Counted from the stretch's first letter, positions 3,107 to 35,337 are shown. The stretch is 64,000 nucleotides of DNA from Thermodesulfobacteriaceae bacterium (GCA_025062245.1 JANXAD010000003.1:16476-80475); one strand, 5' to 3'. The notes: a model not told the origin generated them from the letters alone. Numbers and translations are program-made.

Positions 3107-4927
3107 TTACCATTTTTCAAAATCCGGAGAAACTTTAACTTGGGCTTTTTTTCTTAGCTCCTGATACCACTGATTAAAAAAGACTCTTCGTTTTTCCTCT
3201 AAAAGGTTAGAAACTGTTAACTCTAATTCTTCAGAAAGATAGGTCTTTTTTTCAAAAGGATAAATTTCCTTGATCATAAAAATCTTTATTTCTTCTCCAT
3301 CCCAAAAAGGGTCTTTAATAAATCCCTTAGAACCCATAGAAAAAATTTCCTTAGAGAAAGTAGGTGAAAAGAGCTTTCCAATTTCCTTTCTTAAAACCCT
3401 ATAAGTTCTAATCTGAAAACCTTCTTTTTTAATTTCTTCAGCTCTCAAAGAAAGACTTTGATTAGAGGTAAATTTTTTAATTTTATTTTCACAAATCTCT
3501 TTTCCTTTAATATTTAAATAATCCTCTTTAACCCTTCCTTTGGCCTCTTCAAAGGAAAGATTTTTAGGAGGTTTTTTATCTATTATCTCCACGAAAACTA
3601 TTCCCTTAGGAGGAACTTCTAAAGGAGATAGAAAGTCTCCTTTATTACTTTGAAAAACCTTTAAAATTCCCTCTGAAGATCCTAAAATTTTTTTAACACC
3701 TTCTTTACCAAGAAAATCTGTTTCTACCAGCTGAACTTGAGTTTTTTTAGCCCAGTTAGTTAATCCGTTTTCCTTAATTATTTCTTGATAAAGACTGTGA
3801 GCTTTACTTTTAGTTAGATTTTTAATTTTTTCAGAAATTAGTTCCTTTCTAATTTCTGATTCTATCTCCTTTAAACTTAAAACTCTTTCTGGTTTAACTT
3901 CTTCTACCCCTAAAATAAAATAGTTAGTCCCTATTTTTACCGGTCCAACTATTTCTCCTGTTTGAGCTTTCTTTAAAAGATTTCTTATCTCTTCAGGTAA
4001 AGCCTGTTCTTCAAACCAGTCTCCCTTTTTGATTCCAAACTTTTCAAAATCTTTTAAGCCTTTAATTTGGTCCCTTGTCTTTTGCGCCTCTAATAGAGCC
4101 TTTTCATCTGCCCCGGAGACAGTTATTCTCCTCAGTTTTATTTTAAAGGGCTGTTTAAATCTTTCTAAATTTTCTTGATAATATTTTTTTATTTCTTCAG
4201 GTTCTAACTTAACCTCCCTTTGATAGGGCAAAAGATATAGGGCTAACTTAACCTTTTCTTCCTCTACATATAGATTTCTATGGGTTAAAAAATAGTTTTC
4301 CAAATCCTTTTCTGAATAATTAACCCAAACTTTACACTTACTTAAAGGTAAACTCAATTCCTCTAAAACCAAGGTTTGGTGAGAATAATTCAAAAATTCT
4401 TCTGCTTCTTTAGAAGAAACTAATAAAGGGGTCGTCAAAATCAAAGTAAGTTTTTTTTCTAATAGATCGAACTTTACTAACTTTTCAAAAAAGGAAGGAG
4501 AAATACCTAAGCTTCTTAAAACAGAATGATACTTATTAGGGTCAAATTGGTTAGCCTCTCTGAAAAGAGGAAATTGAGAAATAGCTAAACCTACTTCAGG
4601 GGAGGTTATCTTAATACCTACTTTTTCTGCTTCTCTTTCTAAAAGTTTCATTTTTATTAAATTTTCTAAAACCTGCTCTTTAATCTTAAGCTTTTTAAGT
4701 TCTTCGGAAGATAATTCACCAAAGGTTTGTTTTAGTTGAAAGGTTTGAAATTGGTAATACTCTTGAAATTCTTTAGAAGAAATAGTTATTCCGTCTACTT
4801 TAGCTACCCAATCTTTTTTTTCAGAAGTAAAGGTGCCTATTCCCCAGAAAATAAAAACTATAATGATAACCGCTAAAAAAATTTTGGCTAATAAAGAAGT
4901 GGCCCCTTTTCTTAAGAAGTCAAACAT
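3107..4927 (-). CDS. ppiD: PpiD/SurA-N domain periplasmic chaperone, membrane-anchored
   Basis: N-terminal TM anchor IFLAVIIIVFIFWGIG, then WVAKVDG..I and a SurA_N-like helical region; 606 aa as typical for PpiD; rotamase motifs are degenerate. Confidence 0.8.
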   Translation of the reverse strand: MFDFLRKGATSLLAKIFLAVIIIVFIFWGIGTFTSEKKDWVAKVDGITISSKEFQEYYQFQTFQLKQTFGELSSEELKKLKIKEQVLENLIKMKLLEREAEKVGIKITSPEVGLAISQFPLFREANQFDPNKYHSVLRSLGISPSFFEKLVKFDLLEKKLTLILTTPLLVSSKEAEEFLNYSHQTLVLEELSLPLSKCKVWVNYSEKDLENYFLTHRNLYVEEEKVKLALYLLPYQREVKLEPEEIKKYYQENLERFKQPFKIKLRRITVSGADEKALLEAQKTRDQIKGLKDFEKFGIKKGDWFEEQALPEEIRNLLKKAQTGEIVGPVKIGTNYFILGVEEVKPERVLSLKEIESEIRKELISEKIKNLTKSKAHSLYQEIIKENGLTNWAKKTQVQLVETDFLGKEGVKKILGSSEGILKVFQSNKGDFLSPLEVPPKGIVFVEIIDKKPPKNLSFEEAKGRVKEDYLNIKGKEICENKIKKFTSNQSLSLRAEEIKKEGFQIRTYRVLRKEIGKLFSPTFSKEIFSMGSKGFIKDPFWDGEEIKIFMIKEIYPFEKKTYLSEELELTVSNLLEEKRRVFFNQWYQELRKKAQVKVSPDFEKW

Positions 4928-26074: not shown

Positions 26075-27028
26075 AGGGGAGGAAAGGCTATGGGAAAACT
26101 TTTAGAAAAAATAGAACTTGGCAATTTAGAACTTAAAAACAGAACTATAAGGTCTGCCACTTGGGAAGGGATGTGTGATAAAGAGGGAAAACCTACGGAG
26201 AGATTAATTGAGCTTTATGAAGAATTGGCTCAAGGAGAAGTTGGTTTAATTATTACAGGTTATGCCTATGTTAGTCCAGAAGGGCAACAACTTCCGGGCA
26301 TGTTGGGACTTCACCAGGATGAAAATATAGAATCTCTTCAGAGGATGGTTGAAAGGGTAAAAGCTAAGGGAGGAGTTATAGCTGTATAACTTGGAAGACC
26401 TAAAAAGGGTGGTAGAAGACTTTGCTAAGGCTGCCGAAAGAGCTAAAAAAGCTGGCTTTGATGCTGTTCAACTTCACGGAGCTCACGGATATTTAATTAA
26501 TGAATTTTTGTCTCCTCTTACTAATCGAAGAGCTGATGAATATGGAGGAAACTTAGAGAATAGAGCCAGATTCTTAAAGGAAATTATAGAAGCTATAAGA
26601 GAGAGGGTAGGAGATGGGTATCTCCTTTTTATAAAACTTAATGGAGATGATTTTTTGGAGGGTGGTTTTAATATAAGGGAGGCTGTTGAGGTTTCAAAAT
26701 GGCTTGAGAGTTGGGGGATAGGAAGCCTATCATAAGGAGCTTTCTTTTGAGATTAAAAAGGCTGTTTTTAAAGTGCCTGTAGGTTTAGTGGGAGGTATCA
26801 GAAGTTTTGAAGTAGCAAGTGAACTTTTAGAGAAGGGATATGCGGATTTAATTTCTTTTTCAAGACCTTTTATTTGTGAGCCCCAATTGATTAGGAGGTG
26901 GAAAGAGGGGGACTTAAGGAAAGCTCAATGTATTTCCTGTAGTGAGTGTCTTTTGGTTGGAGTTAAGGAGGGAGGAATTTACTGTGTAGCCCGTAAAAAA
27001 GGAAGAATTTAAAAAGGATTTAATTTCT
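26075..27028 (+). repeat. 954-bp direct repeat, copy 2
   Basis: About 99% identical to 23674-24627; its last ~20 bp overlap the 3' end of the 27009-28304 gene. Confidence 0.95.
26090..27012 (+). pseudogene. NADH:flavin oxidoreductase / Old Yellow Enzyme, broken into three frames (copy 2, same lesions as copy 1)
   Basis: Same stop and frame breaks as 23689-24611; four amino-acid differences (P/S, P/L, A/V, K/R). Confidence 0.88.
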
Positions 27029-28304
27029 CTGTAACTTTATCTTTTAATTCATAAACGGAACATCCGAGTTTGATGGCTGCCCTTTTTAAGTACTCTCTTA
27101 CTGAAGAACGGGAAATTCCTAAAATTTGTGCAACTTCTTTCAAACTTGTGTTTTGAATTAAATGATAAAAGAGAACCTCACTTTCTCTTAGGGTTAATTT
27201 TTTGGCTGAAGAATTTAAGGATTTATTGAGTTTAATTTGTAAAATTTCTGGAGTTAATTTTTCCTCTTTTTTTTCTGTCAAAATTTTTTCTTCTTTTTCC
27301 TTTATTTCAGTTTTATAAAAAAAGACAAAGGTTAAAAGAGCAACTAATGTTAAAAAACTTAGAATATGTTCTTTTTGGTAAAAAACGAGATAATGAAATA
27401 ACAAATGCCCCAAGAGGAGGGATAAGTTTATTAAAGCATAAAGAAGAGATAAAAATCTGATAGTTGTAAAGTTATTTATAAAAAAGTAAAGGGTTATAAA
27501 ATCCATTAAGCCTGAAGAGGAAAAAATAAAAAATTGAGCTATGAATAAAACCTTTTCATTTTCAAAGTGAAAAAAGGCTTTAGAGAAAGCAAGAAAAACT
27601 GATCCTAAAATAAATAATTCTTTGAAGAAGATTATTTTTTTCTTTTTTAAAAGAATACCTAAAAGGACTCCTAAACTATAAAAGAGAGTTAAAGAGCCAA
27701 GACTTAAAATGGATGGATAGGAGCTTTTTTCTATCCATAGATAAACTAAGGTTCCTGAAAAATAAAAAATAGATATACCTAAGAAAAGATAAACTAAATT
27801 TTTTAGAGGAAAGGGTAAAAAATCTTCTTCCTTTTTTGAAAAAGTCTTAAAGTTAGGGTTTAAAAAATAAAGAAAAAATAAATTGATTCCGATAAATAAA
27901 TAAACATAAACTTTAGAAAGAGGCCAAAAATTTAAAATTAAGGTTATCCAATTTCCTAAGATAAATCCCATATAAGGAAAAAAGGAATTTCCATCTTTTT
28001 TGAGGAAGGAAAGGGCTCTTAAAATTATCAGAGGAAAAAAAAGAGCTAAAAAAATTAAAATATAAAGTTTTAAAGAATCTATAATAAAAGGGAATAAGGC
28101 CGTTAATAAAGCACCTTTTAGAATAAAGAAGGGAAAAAAATTAAATTTTTCAAACCAACTAAACTTTAGAAAAATAATTGTATAGCCTATTAAGTGAAAG
28201 ATTAAAAACCAAGGAAACCAACTTTTTTCAGGTAAGAGAAAACCTTGGAGTGGAAAGGCTGTTAACCAAAGAGTAATGATAGATAAACTCAAAAATCCCT
28301 TCAT
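27009..28304 (-). CDS. Multi-pass (~11-12 TM, MFS-like) membrane protein with a C-terminal LuxR-type HTH
   Basis: About 330 aa of successive hydrophobic segments, a charged linker, then LTLRESEVLFYHLIQNTSLKEVAQILGISRSSVREYLKRAAIKLG. Confidence 0.78.
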   Translation of the reverse strand: MKGFLSLSIITLWLTAFPLQGFLLPEKSWFPWFLIFHLIGYTIIFLKFSWFEKFNFFPFFILKGALLTALFPFIIDSLKLYILIFLALFFPLIILRALSFLKKDGNSFFPYMGFILGNWITLILNFWPLSKVYVYLFIGINLFFLYFLNPNFKTFSKKEEDFLPFPLKNLVYLFLGISIFYFSGTLVYLWIEKSSYPSILSLGSLTLFYSLGVLLGILLKKKKIIFFKELFILGSVFLAFSKAFFHFENEKVLFIAQFFIFSSSGLMDFITLYFFINNFTTIRFLSLLYALINLSLLLGHLLFHYLVFYQKEHILSFLTLVALLTFVFFYKTEIKEKEEKILTEKKEEKLTPEILQIKLNKSLNSSAKKLTLRESEVLFYHLIQNTSLKEVAQILGISRSSVREYLKRAAIKLGCSVYELKDKVTEKLNPF

Positions 28305-28441
28305 TATTTATAAAATAATATAATATTTAAAATATTATCTTGCAAGACAATGTCACCACCTTTTGGTTACAAATAAAAAACAATTAGGTGACAAGAAATT
28401 TTTTAAGAATGTGTTATTCTAAAAATTATTAGGGAGGTGTG

Positions 28442-29152
28442 ATGGATAATAAAATAAAACTAAATTTACTTATTAAAATTAAAAACCAGCTTTTAGCTGA
28501 GGCTTTTCTTTTTTATCTTAGTAACTCCCAATCTCTTAAAAATAAATTTGAATTTCAAATTGATTTAAAGCCTCAAAATGAGAGAATTTATGAGATAGTA
28601 ATTTTTGATAAAAGTACTCTAAGGGAAAGTAAGCCTGAGGAAAGTAAGACTGAGGACTATTTTTCTTCCAAAAAACTTCTTTTAGACGACGGTTCTTTGG
28701 AAGAGGAGATCGTTTTTTTATTTTTATATTATAGACTTTCAGGAGTTCTTTCTTCAGATATTTCCTTATCTCTTTTTGGTAAATGTCTTGAAGTAGTGTT
28801 AAGGGGTGAAATTTGGGTGAGTAATCATTTAGTTAAAAAAATTTGCGAAAATTACGACAGTTTTTTTACTAAAAAGGGGCTTGAAAATTTAACCTTTAAG
28901 GAAAGGGAAGTTGTTAAGCTTATTTGTGAAGGACTTAGTAATAAGGAAATAGCCTTAAGACTTTTTATTTCAGAACAAACTGTTAAAACTCACTTAAACC
29001 ATATTTTTAAAAAAACCGGGGCTAAAAATCGAAATCAATTAATTAAAATGTATTTCTATGCCATAGGTAAAGAGAGGGTCCAGGTTAGTTCTGAAGATCA
29101 AATTCAAACCTCAAGACCTATCAAAAAGCTTTTAAAGCTTAAAAGAAGTTAA
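28442..29152 (+). CDS. csgD: CsgD-like LuxR/NarL-family regulator (degenerate receiver + HTH)
   Basis: VVLRGEIWVS..LV, LTFKEREVVKLICEGLSNKEIALRLFISEQTVKTHLNHIFKK; directly upstream of the curlin genes. ATG 28442 or GTG 28439 after AGGGAGG. Confidence 0.72.
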   Translation: MDNKIKLNLLIKIKNQLLAEAFLFYLSNSQSLKNKFEFQIDLKPQNERIYEIVIFDKSTLRESKPEESKTEDYFSSKKLLLDDGSLEEEIVFLFLYYRLSGVLSSDISLSLFGKCLEVVLRGEIWVSNHLVKKICENYDSFFTKKGLENLTFKEREVVKLICEGLSNKEIALRLFISEQTVKTHLNHIFKKTGAKNRNQLIKMYFYAIGKERVQVSSEDQIQTSRPIKKLLKLKRS

Positions 29153-29368
29153 TTTTAGGTTTTAAAACTTAAGTATTAGAAAATTTTATAACTTTTAAAT
29201 TAAATCTTTTAATTATTTCTTCTCTACCTTTTGGTTAATTTTAATTTTAAAAATACCTTTTAAACTCTCTTCTAAGATGAAAAAACTAAAGGAAGAGAAA
29301 AAGTTAAAAGAGGCTACAACCCCGTTGAGGGATGGTAGTAAAAAACAAAACCTTAGAGGAGGTGTGCT

Positions 29369-29845
29369 ATGTTTAAAAAAATTGCTTTAGGAGTAGCTTG
29401 TTTAGGTTTATTAGTTTCAACCTCAGTTTGGGCAAATGGTCCTGGTGGTGGCTTTGGAGGAGGTTGTGGAGGTGGAGATTTATGTGAAGTTAAAAGGGAT
29501 TTAGATATTCATTTGGGTTTGGATCTTAAACTTGATCTTGATGTTTGTGCTGATTTTGGAAATGCAAAGGATGATTATTACAGTGCTCAAGCTGTTATAC
29601 TTCAAGCAGGTGAAGGAAATGAAGCAACTATTACACAACAGGTAACTAATGCACAGGGAATCATAATTCAAGTTGGAGAGGATAATGTGGCTGAAACAAC
29701 TCAGAGTGGAGCTAAGGATTTTGCTATGACAATTCAAGTTGGTTGCTTAAATGAAGCTACAATTAAACAAGGACAAGCTGGAAATATGGCTGCAGTTATT
29801 GGACAGTATGGAAACTCAAATGTAGCTACGATAACTCAACCATAA
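29369..29845 (+). CDS. csgA: Curlin major-subunit candidate (CsgA-like)
   Basis: Sec signal ending VWA, Gly-rich N-terminus, then Q-x-G-x-x-N-x-A-x-x-x-Q repeats (QAGEGNEATITQ, QVGEDNVAETTQ, QVGCLNEATIKQ, QYGNSNVATITQ); strong SD; hairpin after the stop. Confidence 0.75.
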   Translation: MFKKIALGVACLGLLVSTSVWANGPGGGFGGGCGGGDLCEVKRDLDIHLGLDLKLDLDVCADFGNAKDDYYSAQAVILQAGEGNEATITQQVTNAQGIIIQVGEDNVAETTQSGAKDFAMTIQVGCLNEATIKQGQAGNMAAVIGQYGNSNVATITQP

Positions 29846-29855
29846 GAAATTGTGT

Positions 29856-29877
29856 TAGGAGGGGGAATCCCCTCCTA
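29856..29877 (+). terminator. 9-bp stem-loop between the two curlin genes (partial terminator or mRNA stabiliser)
   Basis: TAGGAGGGG-GAAT-CCCCTCCTA perfect stem; only a short T run follows. Confidence 0.7.
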
Positions 29878-29890
29878 TTAAGGAGGCTTT

Positions 29891-30427
29891 ATGAAATCCC
29901 ACTTTTTAAAGTTTATAGGTTTTTGTTTTTTAAATTTTTCCTTAACCTTTCCTCTTCAAGCTCAAATAAATTATCAAGTAGATGATGGCTTTCCTACAGA
30001 ATATTTAGAAAAAATTGTTAATTTAGCTACGGATATAAAAATTGATTTAGATATAGAAACTTCTTTAAATTTAGATATTCCCGTTAACGAGGTTAGTCAA
30101 GCAGTAATCGTCCAAATAGGAAATCAAAATCAAGCTTATCAAACTCAATATGGAATTTCTAATATAGCACTGATTTATCAAGAGGGAAATGAAAATTATG
30201 CCTTTCAAAAGCAAGAAGGAAATTATAATCAAGCTTATATTATTCAACAGGGTTTCAATAATTACGCTTATCAAGAACAGCTTTCAAATTATAATACAGC
30301 TATTGTTATTCAACTTGGTTCCAATAATCAAGCTTATCAGTATCAAGGACTTCACGGAGGGGTTGGTTATAAAAGCACTATTATTCAACAAGGAAACGGT
30401 AATGTGGCAACTATTTATCAATATTAG
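29891..30427 (+). CDS. csgB: Curlin minor/nucleator candidate (CsgB-like)
   Basis: Signal peptide ending LQA, then about nine curlin half-repeats (QIGNQNQAYQTQ, EGNENYAFQKQ, QGFNNYAYQEQ, LGSNNQAYQYQ, QGNGNVATIYQ). Confidence 0.75.
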   Translation: MKSHFLKFIGFCFLNFSLTFPLQAQINYQVDDGFPTEYLEKIVNLATDIKIDLDIETSLNLDIPVNEVSQAVIVQIGNQNQAYQTQYGISNIALIYQEGNENYAFQKQEGNYNQAYIIQQGFNNYAYQEQLSNYNTAIVIQLGSNNQAYQYQGLHGGVGYKSTIIQQGNGNVATIYQY

Positions 30428-30435
30428 GAGAAAAG

Positions 30436-30828
30436 ATGAAGTGGATGTTTTTAGGTTTTTTTCTTATTCTTTTAATTTATTCCCTCTCTATAATAGAGGG
30501 TAAAACTATTGAAGACTTTCCTGTAGAAATAAATTTGGCAGTAGAAAGAGAAAAGGGATTTTTGAAGGTTTATACCGATTGTCATAATCTTTCCTCCGAG
30601 AAAAGGGAATTTAAGATAATAATTAAAATTGAAAAAACTGGAAAAACAGGTAAATCAAGCATGTTACAGAGTAAAAAAGTTAAACTTTTACCTCAAGAAA
30701 GATCTAGACCTGTGATAGCCTTTTTAGGTGTAAAAAGAGAGGACTTTTACCTTATAGAGTGCCAAATTTTTGACGAAAAAAAGAGACTCGTTTTTTATAA
30801 AATTTTAACTTCTCAGGCTAATTCATGA
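30436..30828 (+). CDS. csgH: CsgH-like curli accessory chaperone
   Basis: Signal peptide, K-x-G-x-x-G-x-S-x-x-x-Q motif (KTGKTGKSSMLQ), two Cys; lies between the curlins and csgE. Confidence 0.6.
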   Translation: MKWMFLGFFLILLIYSLSIIEGKTIEDFPVEINLAVEREKGFLKVYTDCHNLSSEKREFKIIIKIEKTGKTGKSSMLQSKKVKLLPQERSRPVIAFLGVKREDFYLIECQIFDEKKRLVFYKILTSQANS

Positions 30829-31259
30829 AGTATGTATTTTTTTTAATTTTAAAATCTTTTTTAATTTTTTTATTTCTTTTTAAATTAGGATTTTCTCAAG
30901 AAGTAAGGGAGGATATTAAAAAGGAGGAGGCTAAAAAGGAACCTCTCCTTTTAGGCTTTATTTTAGATAAAACTAAGACCAAGATAGGAAGGGATTTTTA
31001 CGATGCTTTTGTGAACCTATGGGAATTTCCTTTAGGAACAGAAAATTTAAATATTATTATAGATGAACAAACAGACCCCCGCTTAGGAACTCAAATTTTT
31101 GTATATGTGGAAGACACTTTAGTTTATCATACGATCCTTAAACCTCGTTTAGAGGATATAGATGCTAAAGCTGAAGAGGCTATTCAAGTGGTTTTTAATT
31201 ACTTTATGAATTATCTTAAGTATCAAAAATACTTGGAAGAAGAATCAAAGTTTATGTAG
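30825..31259 (+). CDS. csgE: Curli assembly protein CsgE
   Basis: GFILDKTKTKIGRDFYDAF..W, IIIDEQ.DPRLGTQI, LKPR. Confidence 0.88.
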   Translation: MKYVFFLILKSFLIFLFLFKLGFSQEVREDIKKEEAKKEPLLLGFILDKTKTKIGRDFYDAFVNLWEFPLGTENLNIIIDEQTDPRLGTQIFVYVEDTLVYHTILKPRLEDIDAKAEEAIQVVFNYFMNYLKYQKYLEEESKFM

Positions 31260-31270
31260 GAGGGAAAGGT

Positions 31271-31702
31271 ATGAAGGATATTAAATTTGGGATAGCTTTT
31301 TTGATTTTGGTTTTTGGTTTTTATTCTCTATCTAAAGCTTCGGAGTTAACTTTTCAGTTCACCAATCCTTCTTTCGGAGGAAATCCTCTTTACAGTTCCT
31401 TTTATCTTCAAAGTGCTCAAATGCAAAACATTTTCACTAAAAAAGCCTCTTCTCTTTACAAACCCAAATCCCTTATTGAGCGTTTTACCGAAAGTTTTAC
31501 CAATCAACTTCTTTATAGGATGTCAGATTATATATTAGATCAGCTTTTTGGAGAGGATAATCAACTACCTGATAGACCTATGACCTATACTATAGGTAAC
31601 TTTAAAATAGAATACGACCCTACAGGAGAAAACTATGTTTTTACTGTAACCGACCTTTCTACAGGCCAAACTACTACCTTAGAAGTTCCCAAGGTTATGT
31701 AG
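31271..31702 (+). CDS. csgF: Curli assembly protein CsgF
   Basis: SELTFQFTNPSFGGNP....LQSAQMQN; C-terminal TG.TTTLEVP. Confidence 0.92.
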   Translation: MKDIKFGIAFLILVFGFYSLSKASELTFQFTNPSFGGNPLYSSFYLQSAQMQNIFTKKASSLYKPKSLIERFTESFTNQLLYRMSDYILDQLFGEDNQLPDRPMTYTIGNFKIEYDPTGENYVFTVTDLSTGQTTTLEVPKVM

Positions 31703-31735
31703 AAAAGTAGAAAAATTTTTAAAAAGGGGGATAGG

Positions 31736-32647
31736 ATGAAAAGTAAGATAAGATATGGAGGAATTTTTTTAGCTTTAGCCTTAGCTTTAGGAGGATGTGC
31801 TGGTCCTGTTTATTCTCCCTTTTATGAAAAGGCTATGAGTGGAACAGAGTATATAACCTCTGTTCATAAGGACTTAATAAGTTTACCTCCACCTGAAAAG
31901 CAAGTTCCAGTTGCAGTCTATAAATTTAGAGATCAAACAGGACAGTATAAACCGCCGACCACTTCTACTAATTTTTCAACAGCTGTGACTCAGGGAGCTA
32001 CAGCTATTCTTATTAAAGCCTTAGAGGATAGCGGTTGGTTTATACCTGTGGAAAGGGAAAATTTGGCTAATCTTCTTCAAGAAAGAAAAATCATTTTACA
32101 GATGGGGCAACAGTATGCGGATGAAAAATTAAAAGAAGCTACCAGTAAAATTTTACAACCTTTGATTTATGCAGGAGTTATTTTAGAGGGTGGAGTAATT
32201 GGTTACGATACTAATATTGTTTCCGGAGGATTTGGAGCTAAGTATTTTGGAGCCGGGGGTGCTGCTCAATATAGGGTTGACAGAGTTACGGTATACTTAA
32301 GAGCTGTTTCGGTAAAAAATGGAGCCATACTTAAAACGGTTCAAGCCACTAAAGTTATTCTTTCCCAACAGCTTTCAGCAGGATTTTTTAGGTTTGTGAG
32401 ACTTAATCGACTTCTGGAAATTGAAGCTGGAATTGCCTCCAATGAACCTGTAGAAATGGCAGTGCAAGAGGCTATCGAGAAAGCGGTTCACGATCTTATT
32501 ATAGAGGGTGTTAAAATTGGTATGTGGAAACCTAAGGAACCTGAAGTTTTTAAGGCTGTAGTGGAAAAATATGAAAGGGAAAGAAAGGAAGCTTTAAAAA
32601 GATTAAAACAAATGGGTGAAAGTTCTTTCTGGGGTGAAGTTTCTTAA
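31736..32647 (+). CDS. csgG: Curli secretion channel lipoprotein CsgG
   Basis: Lipobox LGGC, VAVYKFRDQTGQYKP, FSTAVTQGA..ILIKALEDSGWF.PVERE.L.NLLQER.I. Confidence 0.96.
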   Translation: MKSKIRYGGIFLALALALGGCAGPVYSPFYEKAMSGTEYITSVHKDLISLPPPEKQVPVAVYKFRDQTGQYKPPTTSTNFSTAVTQGATAILIKALEDSGWFIPVERENLANLLQERKIILQMGQQYADEKLKEATSKILQPLIYAGVILEGGVIGYDTNIVSGGFGAKYFGAGGAAQYRVDRVTVYLRAVSVKNGAILKTVQATKVILSQQLSAGFFRFVRLNRLLEIEAGIASNEPVEMAVQEAIEKAVHDLIIEGVKIGMWKPKEPEVFKAVVEKYERERKEALKRLKQMGESSFWGEVS

Positions 32648-33133: not shown

Positions 33134-33853
33134 ATGCATCGTGAAGCTCAGAAAAGTTATGTTATTCATAATTATTATGACCTTATTCGAGCTTTAAAGG
33201 AAAATCCTGAATGGTTAGAGGAATTAAGAAAGTTAATCTTAACTCATGATTTACTTGAGCTTCCCAAAAAATTTGAGGAATTTCTAGAAAAGGAATTTAG
33301 ACCTTTGAAAAGTGATGTAGAAACTTTAAAAAGTGATGTAGAGATTTTAAAAAGCGATGTAAAAACTTTGAAAAGTGATGTAGAAACTTTAAAAAGGGAT
33401 GTAGAGATTCTTAAAAGGGATGTGGGGGTTTTAAAAGTGGATGTAGCCAACCTTAAGGGAGACAATTTTGAAAGAAAGGTTAGAGAAAGGGCTCCTGCCT
33501 TTTTTGGAAAACATTTCAAAAAAGTGAAAGTTATTCCTATTGAAGAATGGGCAGATAAATTAGATGAGACTCAAGAAGCTGGAATAATTTCTTCTGAAGA
33601 AAGAAAGGAAGCCTTAAATTTAGACCTTCTAATTAGATGTAAAAGGTGGGAAGACACGGAGGAAATCCTTTTGGCAGTTGAGGCCTCTTACACCGCAGAT
33701 GATAAAGATGCAGTAAGGGCTCTGAAAAGAGCAGAGATTTTCTTTAAAGTTTATCAAATAAAAACCATTCCTGTGGTAATCGCTAAGGAACTCTCTCCTG
33801 TCTTAGAAGAGAAATATCCTGAAGTTCTTTTTATCAGAGTTGAGGCAGAATAA
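33134..33853 (+). CDS. Heptad-repeat coiled-coil protein with a C-terminal restriction-endonuclease-like domain (family common in thermophiles)
   Basis: DLIRALKENPEWLEELRKLIL..DLLELP N-terminus, LKSDVET-type heptads, C-terminal DLL...LAVEAS..AD..DA.RA..RA. Confidence 0.6.
   Translation: MHREAQKSYVIHNYYDLIRALKENPEWLEELRKLILTHDLLELPKKFEEFLEKEFRPLKSDVETLKSDVEILKSDVKTLKSDVETLKRDVEILKRDVGVLKVDVANLKGDNFERKVRERAPAFFGKHFKKVKVIPIEEWADKLDETQEAGIISSEERKEALNLDLLIRCKRWEDTEEILLAVEASYTADDKDAVRALKRAEIFFKVYQIKTIPVVIAKELSPVLEEKYPEVLFIRVEAE
33305..33463 (+). repeat. 21-bp tandem repeat (~7.5 units) coding LKSDVET/LKRDVEI heptads
   Basis: Units such as TTGAAAAGTGATGTAGAAACT and TTAAAAAGTGATGTAGAGATT. Confidence 0.92.
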
Positions 33854-33858
33854 ATAAC

Positions 33859-34689
33859 CTATTGGTTACTGGGCTGACAAACATTACCCTGTCTTATAAT
33901 AATTACTTTACAATTTTTATCAGTATCATAGGCTATTAGTTCTGTAAAAGTAAAATTCCCACAAAGATTGTGGCAGTTAGAACCACCATAGGTTTCTATA
34001 TAATCAGCTTGATTAAGAGAAATAAAGGTTCCTGAAGTACAAGTTCCTCCGCTTTTCCTGTAAGAATTAATATTTTGATCTAAGGTTACACCTAAGGAAG
34101 AACAATAACCTGGAGCTGCATAATTACATCTTTGCTTTTGAAGTTCAAAAAGAGAAACATATTCCACAAGGTCATCGTATCTTTCTTGTCTGGTAAAGTC
34201 GTAAGGAAAATCGTCAATATTCGGGGTATCCTGTAGGTAAAGGGTTAAGTTGGTTTGGATATTATAATTGAGTCCTCCACTTATTATCATAAAAGCAAGA
34301 TTACTTTTAAATTGACCTTGGTCTGTTATAGAAAAATTGGTGCTATTTAAGCTACAAAGGTCAGTAGAATTTTGAATTAAATTTCCGGAAACTCTATAAA
34401 GTAAAGCCTTCCCCCAAGCATCAAAGCCTCTAACTCCCACAGTATTAAAAGCAGGATCTGGAGAGGTAGCATTATAAACAGTTTCATTTCTTGCAGAAGG
34501 AAGGTAACCAAATCTTATGGCGTAACCCTTTAAAGCTTCCACAGCCTTTCTAACTTCTTCTTTACTTTCTGTATACTTTACCCTTTTAGTGAGAACCCCG
34601 ATTAAACTTGCTCCCAGCCCAAGAAGAAGTCCAATCACTACCAGAATGATAGCCACTTCAACCAGGGTAAAAGCTCGAAAACCTTTCAT
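33859..34689 (-). CDS. Type IV prepilin-like protein with a Cys-rich C-terminal domain (minor pilin/pseudopilin)
   Basis: MKGFRA|FTLVEVAIILVVIGLLLG (class III signal, Glu5); seven Cys in the last ~90 aa. Confidence 0.85.
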   Translation of the reverse strand: MKGFRAFTLVEVAIILVVIGLLLGLGASLIGVLTKRVKYTESKEEVRKAVEALKGYAIRFGYLPSARNETVYNATSPDPAFNTVGVRGFDAWGKALLYRVSGNLIQNSTDLCSLNSTNFSITDQGQFKSNLAFMIISGGLNYNIQTNLTLYLQDTPNIDDFPYDFTRQERYDDLVEYVSLFELQKQRCNYAAPGYCSSLGVTLDQNINSYRKSGGTCTSGTFISLNQADYIETYGGSNCHNLCGNFTFTELIAYDTDKNCKVIIIRQGNVCQPSNQ

Positions 34690-34743: not shown

Positions 34744-35337
34744 TTAAAGCCTAATATAAAGGTCATGAACTGTATTAGGATTAGTTACATAATCTGAACC
34801 ACCTCTTATAGAACCGGTATTATAGACTCCATCATCATATTGTTGATCAAGACTGGCACAGACATCTCCTGGGACATTATCAAATCCAATCCATTGGGTG
34901 GTCAAACCTTGAACAGTAGCATATCCAATTCCTACACTACCTCCATAGGGATTTCTCGGGGCTATTCTTCCATTAGTATTATCAGTTGCGCCTGTTAGGA
35001 TGTTTGCAAGTCTTAAATGTTGCCATGCTATACAAGTTTCTCCAGTTGCACCAGCTCCACAACTTATAGTAAAACCACCAATTAGTCCATCTCCATTTCC
35101 ATTACCTGGGTTTATGGTAGGCCAACGGGTATTGGCATTAGGATCATCTCCCGGAAAAGCATTATACTTATCATAATAGGTGTAAACCGCTGCTAAAATT
35201 TCTCGGTACTGATTATAAAGCCTTTTCATCTTAGCATTGTTAATTAACTCCTGTCCCTTTAAAATAGCTCCTAAGATTAAACCAATAATTACCAAAACGA
35301 TAGCTAATTCAACCAAAGTAAACCCTCCTCGCCTCAT
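34744..35337 (-). CDS. Type IV prepilin-like protein (probable major pilin/pseudopilin)
   Basis: MRRGG|FTLVELAIVLVIIGLILGAILKGQELI. Confidence 0.9.
   Translation of the reverse strand: MRRGGFTLVELAIVLVIIGLILGAILKGQELINNAKMKRLYNQYREILAAVYTYYDKYNAFPGDDPNANTRWPTINPGNGNGDGLIGGFTISCGAGATGETCIAWQHLRLANILTGATDNTNGRIAPRNPYGGSVGIGYATVQGLTTQWIGFDNVPGDVCASLDQQYDDGVYNTGSIRGGSDYVTNPNTVHDLYIRL

What the first reader, a model, noticed from the sequence alone, without database searches (positions are those of the whole stretch)
29369..30427. Atypical curlins: very few repeats, a shared acidic alternating beta-strand module, and four cysteines
Seen: the CsgA-like protein has only about 3.5-4 full repeats. 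Both curlins carry, before their repeats, a non-curlin segment of alternating Asp/hydrophobic residues (DLDIHLGLDLKLDLDV; DIKIDLDIETSLNLDIPV). The mature CsgA-like chain has four Cys (GGGCGGG, DLCEV, DVCAD, QVGCLN), two of them flanking that segment; E. coli CsgA has none. Inference: an extra strand or hairpin that may cap, cross-link or metal-bridge fibres, possibly a thermostability or mineral-binding adaptation and a distinct curlin subclass.
Basis: partly seen in the sequence, partly recalled or inferred. Interest (0 to 1): 0.65.

Follow-up and report, generated by a model that had tools for sequence, protein, structure and literature searches.

The report
Hot-spring curli subunits with cysteine-clamped acidic head
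Two curli amyloid-fibre subunit genes from a hot-spring sulfate-reducer lineage carry a conserved acidic, alternating segment in front of their amyloid repeats. In the first subunit this segment sits among three conserved cysteines, giving a real but functionally untested variant of an otherwise ordinary curli system.

Summary
Window 29369-30427 holds two curlin genes inside a complete one-strand curli operon (csgD-like, A-like, B-like, divergent csgC, csgE, csgF, csgG).

- **Repeats:** Curlin 1 has four repeats and curlin 2 has five. Four is the lower edge of the published range (4-62), so "very few repeats" is not unusual.
- **Module:** The alternating Asp/hydrophobic segment is real and unique in the window. 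It is as conserved as the amyloid core across a family of about 35 short curlins. BLASTP aligns it co-linearly between the A-like and B-like paralogues.
- **Cysteines:** Three of the four (C33, C39, C60) are family-conserved, and C39-C60 spacing is fixed at 21 residues. C126 is lineage-specific. The mature Cys count is odd in 23 of 32 members. By contrast, 101 of 111 other curlins examined have none.
- **Distribution:** Every taxonomically labelled member is Thermodesulfobacteriota, and the window sequence occurs in hot-spring metagenomes.
- **Structure:** AlphaFold2 models both solenoids confidently but leaves both N-terminal segments below pLDDT 50. The segment shows no profile similarity to curlin repeats.

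A capping rung is therefore not supported. My best reading is a non-core N-terminal extension at the N22 position, plus an A-specific cysteine clamp with a spare thiol. Its function is unproven. I rate it a new variant of a known kind, of moderate interest.

The parts
28439..29152 (+). csgD-like LuxR/GerE-family regulator upstream of the curlin genes
   Evidence: Pfam GerE E=9.8e-19. The best NCBIfam hit is CsgD at 71 bits, below the equivalog cut-off. A LuxR gene sits at the same place in L081, L094, L095 and L096.
29369..29845 (+). Curlin 1 (CsgA-like, 158 aa): signal peptide, Gly-rich leader, Cys-bracketed acidic module, linker, four curlin repeats
   Evidence: Pfam Curlin_rpt 43.2 bits. 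AlphaFold2 gives a 4-rung solenoid. A 97% identical protein, P0001, comes from a Thermodesulfobacteriaceae MAG.
29369..29434 (+). Predicted Sec signal peptide of curlin 1 (residues 1-22, cleavage after VWA)
   Evidence: Read from the sequence: a KK n-region, a hydrophobic core and V-W-A at positions -3 to -1. No predictor was run.
29435..29482 (+). Gly-rich leader NGPGGGFGGGCGGGDL containing conserved Cys C33 (codon 29465-29467)
   Evidence: C33 is present in 28 of 32 family members, and most of the rest carry CC at C39. Leader length varies from 0 to about 16 residues, and C33-C39 spacing varies from 0 to 7.
29483..29548 (+). Module proper, C39 to C60: CEVKRDLDIHLGLDLKLDLDVC. The strict alternation runs 29498-29545.
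   Evidence: C39 is in 32/32 and C60 in 30/32 members, with spacing of 21 residues in nearly all. G50 is invariant in the 12-sequence alignment and nearly invariant (at least 90%) in the 32-sequence one. D52 and D58 are invariant, and D56 nearly invariant, in the 32-sequence alignment. Net charge of the wider segment C39 to Y71 (module plus linker) is about -5.
29582..29842 (+). Four curlin repeats R1-R4 (residues 72-158). The non-conserved C126 (codon 29744-29746) lies in the first arc of R3.
   Evidence: AlphaFold2 gives 8 strands at pLDDT 85-97. The invariant Q/G/N/A ladder appears in alignment A3. C126 is present in 2 of 32 members.
29856..29877 (+). GC-rich stem-loop between curlin 1 and curlin 2, ending a few bases upstream of the curlin 2 Shine-Dalgarno sequence
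   Evidence: The 56-nt window 29840-29895 folds at -21.5 kcal/mol, z = -3.0. A 9-12 bp GC-rich stem lies at the same position in L081, L093, L094, L095 and L092, with different sequences.
29891..30427 (+). Curlin 2 (CsgB-like, 178 aa): signal peptide, N-terminal segment, acidic alternating module (30032-30085), five repeats (30095-30424)
   Evidence: Pfam Curlin_rpt 41.9 bits. NCBIfam scores CsgB above CsgA. AlphaFold2 gives a 5-rung solenoid. Orthologues P0004, P0005, P0083, P0122 and P0181 keep an acidic alternating segment.
30436..30828 (+). Divergent CsgC-like periplasmic protein (130 aa)
   Evidence: A profile of 8 orthologues hits PDB CsgC 2y2t/2xsk at E=3.8e-4. Three of the 8 match Pfam Tafi-CsgC, best E 9.4e-7. 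C49 is invariant.
30825..31259 (+). CsgE
   Evidence: Pfam CsgE E=1.8e-23.
31271..31702 (+). CsgF
   Evidence: Pfam CsgF E=1.6e-41.
31736..32647 (+). CsgG outer-membrane secretion channel lipoprotein
   Evidence: Pfam CsgG E=1.1e-64. It is 86% identical to a Thermodesulfatator MAG CsgG.

Best explanation
The two genes are the subunits of a clade-specific curli system of hot-spring Thermodesulfobacteriota. Each subunit is an ordinary curlin beta-solenoid, with four rungs in the A-like protein and five in the B-like protein. Each is preceded by a conserved N-terminal extension that is not part of the amyloid core. It occupies the position that the N22 targeting segment has in E. coli CsgA.

The extension contains an acidic amphipathic beta segment, with hydrophobic residues on one face and Asp on the other. 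Both paralogues inherited it. It therefore most likely serves a step common to both. One candidate is keeping the unfolded subunit soluble and non-polymerising in the periplasm. The other is recognition during CsgE/CsgG-dependent export.

Only the A-like (probably major) subunit adds cysteines. C39 and C60 bracket the segment at a fixed 21-residue spacing, which I read as an intramolecular clamp. A third Cys (C33) sits on a flexible Gly-rich leader. This usually leaves an odd, spare thiol. After export, that thiol could tie neighbouring subunits together. It could also tie the head to a solenoid-arc Cys such as C126, or bind a cation.

Shown: conservation, paralogue homology, taxonomic restriction, the solenoid core and the lack of a confidently modelled docked rung.

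Inferred: every functional step, the C39-C60 pairing, and the major/minor subunit assignment.
For: - Complete operon with CsgC/E/F/G. The same gene order occurs in L081, L093, L094, L095 and L092.
- An exhaustive profile search found a family of 144-186 aa curlins whose alignment runs from residue 1 through the module. 32 of them are aligned in A3.
- C39 is in 32/32 members, C60 in 30/32 and C33 in 28/32. C39-C60 spacing is 21 residues in nearly all, while C33-C39 spacing varies 0-7.
- Module columns are as conserved as repeat columns (2.87 against 2.85 bits). Module charge is about -5.5 per 33 residues.
- BLASTP aligns the A-like and B-like proteins co-linearly through the module in L095 (VGYDLNIDIDVCVDAG against AGLDMNIKVDFSVDLG) and in the window. 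The B-like proteins lack the Cys triad, and in the L095 pair the C60 position is Ser.
- AlphaFold2 models both solenoids at pLDDT 85-97 but both N-terminal segments below 50. This is the behaviour reported for E. coli N22, pLDDT 47 (PMC10192328).
- Mature Cys count is odd in 23 of 32 members. The 9 even members each gained an extra Cys in a solenoid arc, at four different alignment columns.
- 6 of the 7 Cys-containing predicted exported proteins in the window have an even Cys count. This is a weak hint that the organism forms disulfides.
- Precedent: FapC carries a Cys-X-X-Cys motif in a flexible terminus outside its amyloid core. Deleting that terminus slows fibrillation, and intermolecular disulfides have been proposed there (PMC3684753 and bioRxiv 10.64898/2026.04.28.719052).
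- A conserved hairpin after gene 1 fits a major subunit followed by a minor one.
Against: - No experiment exists, and no RNA run holding the gene could be listed.
- Low AlphaFold2 confidence may simply reflect shallow alignments (32 and 6 sequences) and monomer-only modelling. It does not prove that the segment stays outside the fibre.
- The hosts are sulfide-producing anaerobes (family-level knowledge, not tested here). Extracellular disulfides may not survive in sulfidic hot water.
- The Gly-rich, N22-like leader is not conserved in the family.
- The module has no resemblance to N22 or to curlin repeats.
- The idea that the acidic face docks a basic CsgC holds only in part of the family. CsgC-like pI is 9.2-9.4 in one subgroup and 5.5-6.6 in others.
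- Both curlins score better against the CsgB model than the CsgA model, so the major/minor assignment is inferred.
Confidence: 0.35

Rival explanations
1. The module is a structural extra rung (R0) of the solenoid. It would be a hydrophobic-core, Asp-surfaced beta-arch stapled by a C39-C60 disulfide. It would stack on R1 and become part of the fibre core or its cap, adding thermostability.
For: - In curlin 2 the segment TDIKIDLDIETSLNLDIPVNEV is exactly one repeat length (22 residues) and directly abuts R1.
- The alternation places hydrophobic residues on one face, as in curlin strands.
- G50 is invariant in the 12-sequence alignment and nearly invariant in the 32-sequence one. It lies between two alternating stretches, like an arc glycine.
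- C39-C60 spacing is fixed.
Against: - hhalign of the module alignment against pooled family repeats gives probability 0.04.
- AlphaFold2 does not dock the segment in either protein, with pLDDT below 50.
- The C39-C60 span of 21 residues is longer than the 17-residue N-to-Q span of a curlin arch.
- The hydrophobic parity is continuous through G50, which does not fit the usual arc.
Confidence: 0.2
2. The segment is purely a secretion or chaperone-handling signal, an N22 functional analogue. The cysteines have no role in the fibre and serve, for example, only in transient periplasmic folding control.
For: - The segment has the same N-terminal position as N22.
- It is shared by both secreted subunits.
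- AlphaFold2 confidence is low, as for N22.
- The family otherwise lacks a conserved N22-like Gly-rich stretch.
Against: - A Cys triad conserved over sequences only 31-47% identical overall, and absent from the B-like paralogue, suggests an A-specific role beyond export.
- Independent gains of a partner Cys on solenoid arcs suggest contact with the folded core.
Confidence: 0.2
3. The three thiols and the Asp face form a metal- or mineral-binding site on the fibre surface. This could bind Fe, Zn, Cu or As, or nucleate metal sulfides around a sulfate reducer.
For: - The conserved Cys number is odd (23 of 32 members).
- The module has a high density of Asp.
- The source is hot-spring metagenomes.
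- The CX4C unit also occurs in Thermodesulfovibrio curlins.
Against: - There is no match to any known metal-binding family. The only hits for either curlin are the curlin repeat in Pfam and the CsgA/CsgB models in NCBIfam.
- C33-C39 spacing varies from 0 to 7 residues, which is unusual for a defined site.
- There is no direct evidence of any kind.
Confidence: 0.1
4. The module is a chance low-complexity stretch or an annotation artefact with no function.
For: The module is compositionally simple (D/L/I/V).
Against: - It is conserved as strongly as the amyloid core across 32 sequences.
- It sits at a fixed position in two paralogues.
- Both ORFs have strong Shine-Dalgarno sites.
- It is unique in the window.
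Confidence: 0.02

Closest known systems
E. coli/Salmonella curli subunits CsgA and CsgB (Pfam Curlin_rpt PF07012), including the N22 N-terminal segment of CsgA
   Same: - Q-x-G-x-x-N-x-A-x-x-x-Q repeats are predicted to fold as a strand-arc-strand solenoid.
- Repeat number is 4-5.
- The proteins have Sec signal peptides.
- The genes lie with csgC, csgE, csgF, csgG and a LuxR-type regulator.
- A non-core segment precedes R1.
   Different: - All genes lie on one strand, with the A-like gene before the B-like gene.
- Scores fall far below the NCBIfam equivalog cut-offs (39-56 bits against 160-165).
- The N-terminal segment is an Asp/hydrophobic alternating module, not a Gly/Asn-rich degenerate repeat.
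- The A-like subunit has three conserved Cys, whereas E. coli CsgA has none.
[quoted passage not shown]
   Same: - A Cys motif lies in a flexible terminal segment outside the beta-solenoid core of a secreted functional amyloid.
- Intermolecular disulfides and an effect on assembly have been proposed there.
   Different: - The protein family and secretion system are unrelated.
- The FapC motif is C-terminal, has two Cys, and is not embedded in an acidic alternating strand.
Thermodesulfovibrio (Nitrospirota) curlins (L002:3578-4126 and L002:4207-4764; P0187)
   Same: - They come from a thermophilic anaerobe lineage, going by the record names.
- The larger curlin (L002:3578-4126) and P0187 carry N-terminal Cys motifs, including a C-x-G-x-x-C unit like C33..C39 and a Cys directly at the start of R1, as in subgroup b here.
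- The second L002 curlin (4207-4764) has only a C-x8-C pair ahead of R1.
   Different: - They have no acidic alternating module.
- Cys numbers are even (4 and 2).
- They have more repeats.

Membership tests
Curlin (Curlin_rpt, CsgA/CsgB superfamily) | Curlin repeat profile matched above the curated threshold | tested here: met
   PF07012 scores 43.2 and 41.9 bits against a 20.7 cut-off.
Curlin (Curlin_rpt, CsgA/CsgB superfamily) | Stacked strand-arc-strand beta-solenoid | tested here: met
   AlphaFold2 gives 4 and 5 arches at pLDDT 85-97. This is a prediction only. The top Foldseek PDB hit is the E. coli CsgA fibril 8enq, but it is not significant (E=0.036, TM 0.17-0.19).
Curlin (Curlin_rpt, CsgA/CsgB superfamily) | Encoded beside the type VIII secretion genes csgE, csgF and csgG | tested here: met
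   Pfam finds CsgE, CsgF and CsgG immediately downstream.
Curlin (Curlin_rpt, CsgA/CsgB superfamily) | Forms extracellular amyloid fibres | not testable with these tools
   This needs expression with Congo red or ThT assays and electron microscopy.
E. coli-type CsgA / CsgB equivalogs (NCBIfam NF007470 / NF007506) | Score above the equivalog cut-off | tested here: not met
   Scores are 38.7 and 54.9 bits (curlin 1) and 30.3 and 56.2 bits (curlin 2), against cut-offs of 160 and 165. These are distant family members, not equivalogs. The A/B roles are inferred.
N22-type N-terminal segment of CsgA | A degenerate curlin repeat (N/S and Q replaced, often by Gly) directly before R1 | tested here: not met
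   hhalign of the module against family repeats gives probability 0.04. The window protein has a Gly-rich leader, but its length varies from 0 to about 16 residues across the family.
N22-type N-terminal segment of CsgA | Stays outside the amyloid core | tested here: inconclusive
   pLDDT is below 50 for residues 1-49 (A-like) and 1-42 (B-like) of the mature chains. This resembles E. coli N22 at pLDDT 47. The models are monomer-only and the alignments are shallow.
N22-type N-terminal segment of CsgA | Binds CsgE/CsgG and directs secretion | not testable with these tools
   This needs secretion assays with module fusions or deletions.
CsgC chaperone (for the 130-aa protein at 30436-30828) | Sequence-profile match to CsgC | tested here: met
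   A profile of 8 orthologues hits PDB 2y2t/2xsk at E=3.8e-4. Pfam Tafi-CsgC matches 3 of 8 members, best E 9.4e-7. The window protein alone gives only NCBIfam E=0.04.

The most novel reading that the evidence does not exclude
The Cys triad and Asp face form a fibre-surface site. In sulfidic hot springs, this site would covalently staple successive subunits across the head-to-tail interface, or nucleate metal or metal-sulfide bridges. The result would be a naturally cross-linked or mineral-reinforced amyloid, a property not described for any curli system.
Probability: 0.12. Interest if true: 0.8.

Novelty: new variant of a known kind. Interest (0 to 1): 0.45.

Why it matters
Curli is the model bacterial functional amyloid and a platform for engineered living materials. 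A natural four-rung curlin from thermophiles would matter in two ways if its conserved head is functional. This head is cysteine-bearing, acidic and encoded in front of the amyloid core.

First, it would show how the non-core termini of functional amyloids are used. Possible uses are export, assembly control, and covalent or metal reinforcement. Second, it would give a compact heat-adapted scaffold with built-in thiol handles.

The conserved odd cysteine number makes a concrete question testable: are curli fibres covalently cross-linked in some lineages? If the head is only a lineage-specific export tag, the finding is a modest addition to known curlin diversity.

Tried and rejected
- **Degenerate-repeat idea:** hhalign of the module alignment against 128 pooled family repeats gave probability 0.04.
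- **Structural cap:** two AlphaFold2 runs gave confident solenoids but pLDDT below 50 for both N-terminal segments. No multimer run was possible.
- **Foldseek of the curlin 1 model against the PDB:** E. coli CsgA fibril 8enq ranks first but is not significant.
- **Electrostatic docking of the acidic module on a basic CsgC:** the CsgC-like pI is 9.2-9.4 in the window's subgroup but 5.5-6.6 in two others. I rejected this as a general explanation.
- **Lipoprotein reading of the conserved Cys:** there is no lipobox, and the distance from the signal peptide varies. Rejected.
- **Module outside curlins:** a strict back-translated DNA pattern in 185,579 species genomes hit 3 Thermodesulfobacteriota curlin genes and 6 junk or simple-repeat sites.
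- **The search for related loci with the family alignment** failed for lack of a conserved stretch. With P0155 it found nothing.
- **Expression evidence:** no RNA run holding the gene could be listed. Laying contigs from the three hot-spring runs added nothing.
- **Literature:** I found no paper describing native Cys or an acidic N-terminal module in curlins.
- **L001, the closest species genome:** its curlin 1 gene is replaced by a run of N.

Full report
**What is there.** Window 28439-32647 (+ strand) is a complete curli operon. Its genes, in order:
- a LuxR/GerE regulator whose best NCBIfam hit is CsgD (28439-29152)
- curlin 1 (29369-29845, 158 aa)
- curlin 2 (29891-30427, 178 aa)
- a 130-aa protein (30436-30828)
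- CsgE (30825-31259)
- CsgF (31271-31702)
- CsgG (31736-32647)

The 130-aa protein has no Pfam hit on its own. A profile of eight orthologues matches the solved CsgC structures 2y2t/2xsk at E=3.8e-4, and three of the eight match Pfam Tafi-CsgC. It is therefore a divergent CsgC. Both curlin genes have strong Shine-Dalgarno sites and predicted Sec signal peptides (by inspection).

**Checking the observation.**
- Curlin 1 has C33, C39, C60 and C126 in the mature chain, plus C11 in the signal peptide.
- DLDIHLGLDLKLDLDV is residues 44-59.
- DIKIDLDIETSLNLDIPV is residues 48-65 of curlin 2.
- AlphaFold2 with a 32-sequence alignment gives curlin 1 eight strands in four arches, at pLDDT 85-97.
- Curlin 2 gets five arches.
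- The strict 16-residue alternation occurs once only in the six-frame translation of the window.

Four repeats is not unusual. Published surveys give 4-62 repeats with a maximum at 5, and 4-5 in Enterobacteriales (PMC10192328; PMC3521004). All 32 aligned relatives have four repeats. One further relative, P0010, seen only in the 12-sequence alignment, carries a fifth.

**Relatives.** Word-based searches found few homologues. An exhaustive profile search of 1.84 billion representatives then found a set of 144-186 aa curlins aligned from residue 1 through the module. A second search with their alignment returned about 35 clusters.

Across the 32 aligned sequences, overall identity to the window protein is only 31-47%, apart from the 97% identical P0001. 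Within them:
- C39 is invariant, C60 is present in 30 of 32 and C33 in 28 of 32. Most of the remainder carry CC at C39.
- G50, D52, D56, D58 and D62 are invariant or nearly so.
- C39-C60 spacing is 21 residues in almost all members, whereas C33-C39 spacing ranges from 0 to 7.
- C126 occurs in only 2 of 32.
- A subgroup of 14 carries a further C-x4-C pair ending at the first residue of R1.

Module columns carry as much information as repeat columns (2.87 against 2.85 bits). The module carries about -5.5 charge in 33 residues. The typical family module reads C-x-V-x-x-P-x-x-I-x-V-G-Y-D-L-N-I-D-I-D-V-C-V-D-A-G-N. In the window protein the first half has diverged to RDLDIHLG at the same length.

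**Both paralogues share the module.** BLASTP aligns curlin 1 and curlin 2 co-linearly through the module. This is clearest in locus L095 (INVGYDLNIDIDVCVDAG against LNAGLDMNIKVDFSVDLG), and it also holds in the window. The B-like proteins lack the Cys triad, and in the L095 pair the C60 position is Ser. B-like orthologues from eight further sources keep an acidic alternating segment, though less strictly.

**Distribution.**
- Every taxonomically labelled member is Thermodesulfobacteriota: a Thermodesulfobacteriaceae MAG, Thermodesulfobacterium geofontis, and four Thermodesulfobacteriota MAGs.
- A strict back-translated module pattern in one genome per 185,579 species hit three such curlin genes and six junk sites.
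- The window sequence is held by three hot-spring metagenome runs.
- Cysteines are otherwise rare in curlins: 101 of 111 curlin-like ORFs in 74 other loci have none.
- Thermodesulfovibrio curlins are an exception, with N-terminal CX4C and CX7C motifs but no acidic module.

**Structure.** AlphaFold2 leaves residues 1-49 of mature curlin 1 and 1-42 of mature curlin 2 below pLDDT 50, with no strand docked on the solenoid. hhalign finds no similarity between the module and the family's own repeats (probability 0.04). The 'extra rung or cap' reading is therefore not supported. Shallow alignments and monomer-only modelling mean it is not excluded either. E. coli N22 behaves the same way, at pLDDT 47 and excluded from the fibre core (PMC10192328).

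**Mechanism.** Both secreted paralogues keep the acidic amphipathic segment, but only the A-like one keeps the cysteines. I therefore split the function in two.
- *Shared segment.* It most likely serves a step common to both subunits before assembly. That step would be solubility or non-polymerisation in the periplasm, or recognition by CsgE/CsgG, at the position N22 occupies.
- *A-specific cysteines.* I read C39 and C60 as an intramolecular clamp because of their fixed spacing. This leaves C33 on a flexible leader as a spare thiol.

The mature Cys count is odd in 23 of 32 members. The nine even members each gained one Cys in a solenoid arc, at four different alignment columns: R3 arc 1 in the window and P0001, a neighbouring R3 arc 1 column in subgroup c, R4 arc 1 in part of subgroup b, and the R2/R3 arc in P0157 and P0159.

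In a head-to-tail fibre, the head of one subunit lies next to R3-R4 of the previous one. Inter-subunit staples are therefore geometrically plausible. This is inference only.

Six of the seven Cys-containing predicted exported proteins in the window have even Cys counts, a weak hint that disulfides are formed. FapC offers a precedent: it has a Cys-X-X-Cys motif in a flexible, non-core terminus that promotes assembly.

Rival readings are a true stacked rung, a pure export tag, and metal or mineral binding. A general electrostatic pairing with CsgC is contradicted by the acidic CsgC-like proteins of two subgroups.

**Major and minor subunit.** Both curlins score higher against the CsgB model than the CsgA model, so the assignment is inferred. 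Three points support it:
- Curlin 2 has the widely conserved C-terminal G-Y-[KR]-S...Q-x-G-N-G-N repeat.
- Curlin 1 is the clade-specific one.
- A GC-rich stem-loop follows curlin 1 in the window and in five other loci, with different sequences. This is the usual arrangement for expressing more of the first gene than of the second.

**Verdict.** This is a real, conserved, lineage-restricted variant of curli subunits. The curli system itself is ordinary. The N-terminal Cys-clamped acidic head has not been described in the literature I could search. Its function is unknown and testable.

Noticed in passing
window 29856-29877; also L081:4946-5005, L093:6481-6570, L094:6484-6566, L095:6454-6517, L092:7385-7472(-): A GC-rich 9-12 bp stem-loop sits between curlin gene 1 and gene 2 in all six loci, with different sequences. 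It probably acts as a partial terminator or an mRNA-stabilising element that sets an A-over-B expression ratio.
   Followed up: partly
window 30436-30828: The 130-aa protein with no Pfam hit is a divergent CsgC, with an invariant Cys (C49). Its pI is 9.2-9.4 in the window's subgroup but 5.5-6.6 in other subgroups.
   Followed up: yes
window 26090-27012 (+): An Old-Yellow-Enzyme-like (Oxidored_FMN) gene appears split into three consecutive ORFs of 99, 114 and 79 aa. The syntenic gene in L081 is a single 369-aa ORF. This is either a frameshifted pseudogene or an assembly error.
   Followed up: no
window 27009-28304 (-): A 431-aa polytopic membrane protein with a C-terminal sigma-70 region 4 / LuxR-type HTH lies divergently upstream of the curli regulator. 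A 432-aa counterpart is syntenic in L081. It may be a membrane-bound regulator of the operon.
   Followed up: no
L001:4102-4201: In the closest species genome, a Thermodesulfatator MAG with 86% identical CsgG, the curlin 1 gene is replaced by a run of N after its signal peptide. That orthologue could not be read.
   Followed up: no
L002:3578-4126 and L002:4207-4764: The larger Thermodesulfovibrio (Nitrospirota) curlin carries N-terminal C-x4-C and C-x7-C motifs, and the second a single C-x8-C pair. In both, a Cys sits at the start of R1 and there is no acidic module. N-terminal cysteines in curlins may be a wider trait of thermophilic anaerobes.
   Followed up: partly
window 33859-34689 (-) and 34744-35337 (-): Two type IV pilin-like genes (N-terminal FTLVE motif) lie just downstream of the curli operon. 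They have 8 and 3 Cys after the leader.
   Followed up: no
window 33134-33853 (+): A 239-aa protein contains about seven tandem heptads of the form LKSDVET, which suggests a coiled coil. Its function is unknown.
   Followed up: no
L093:4293-5774 and L093:9188-9775(-): In subgroup b, the operon is preceded by a sigma-54 activator and a two-component pair, and the LuxR gene lies downstream on the opposite strand. Regulation therefore differs within the family.
   Followed up: no
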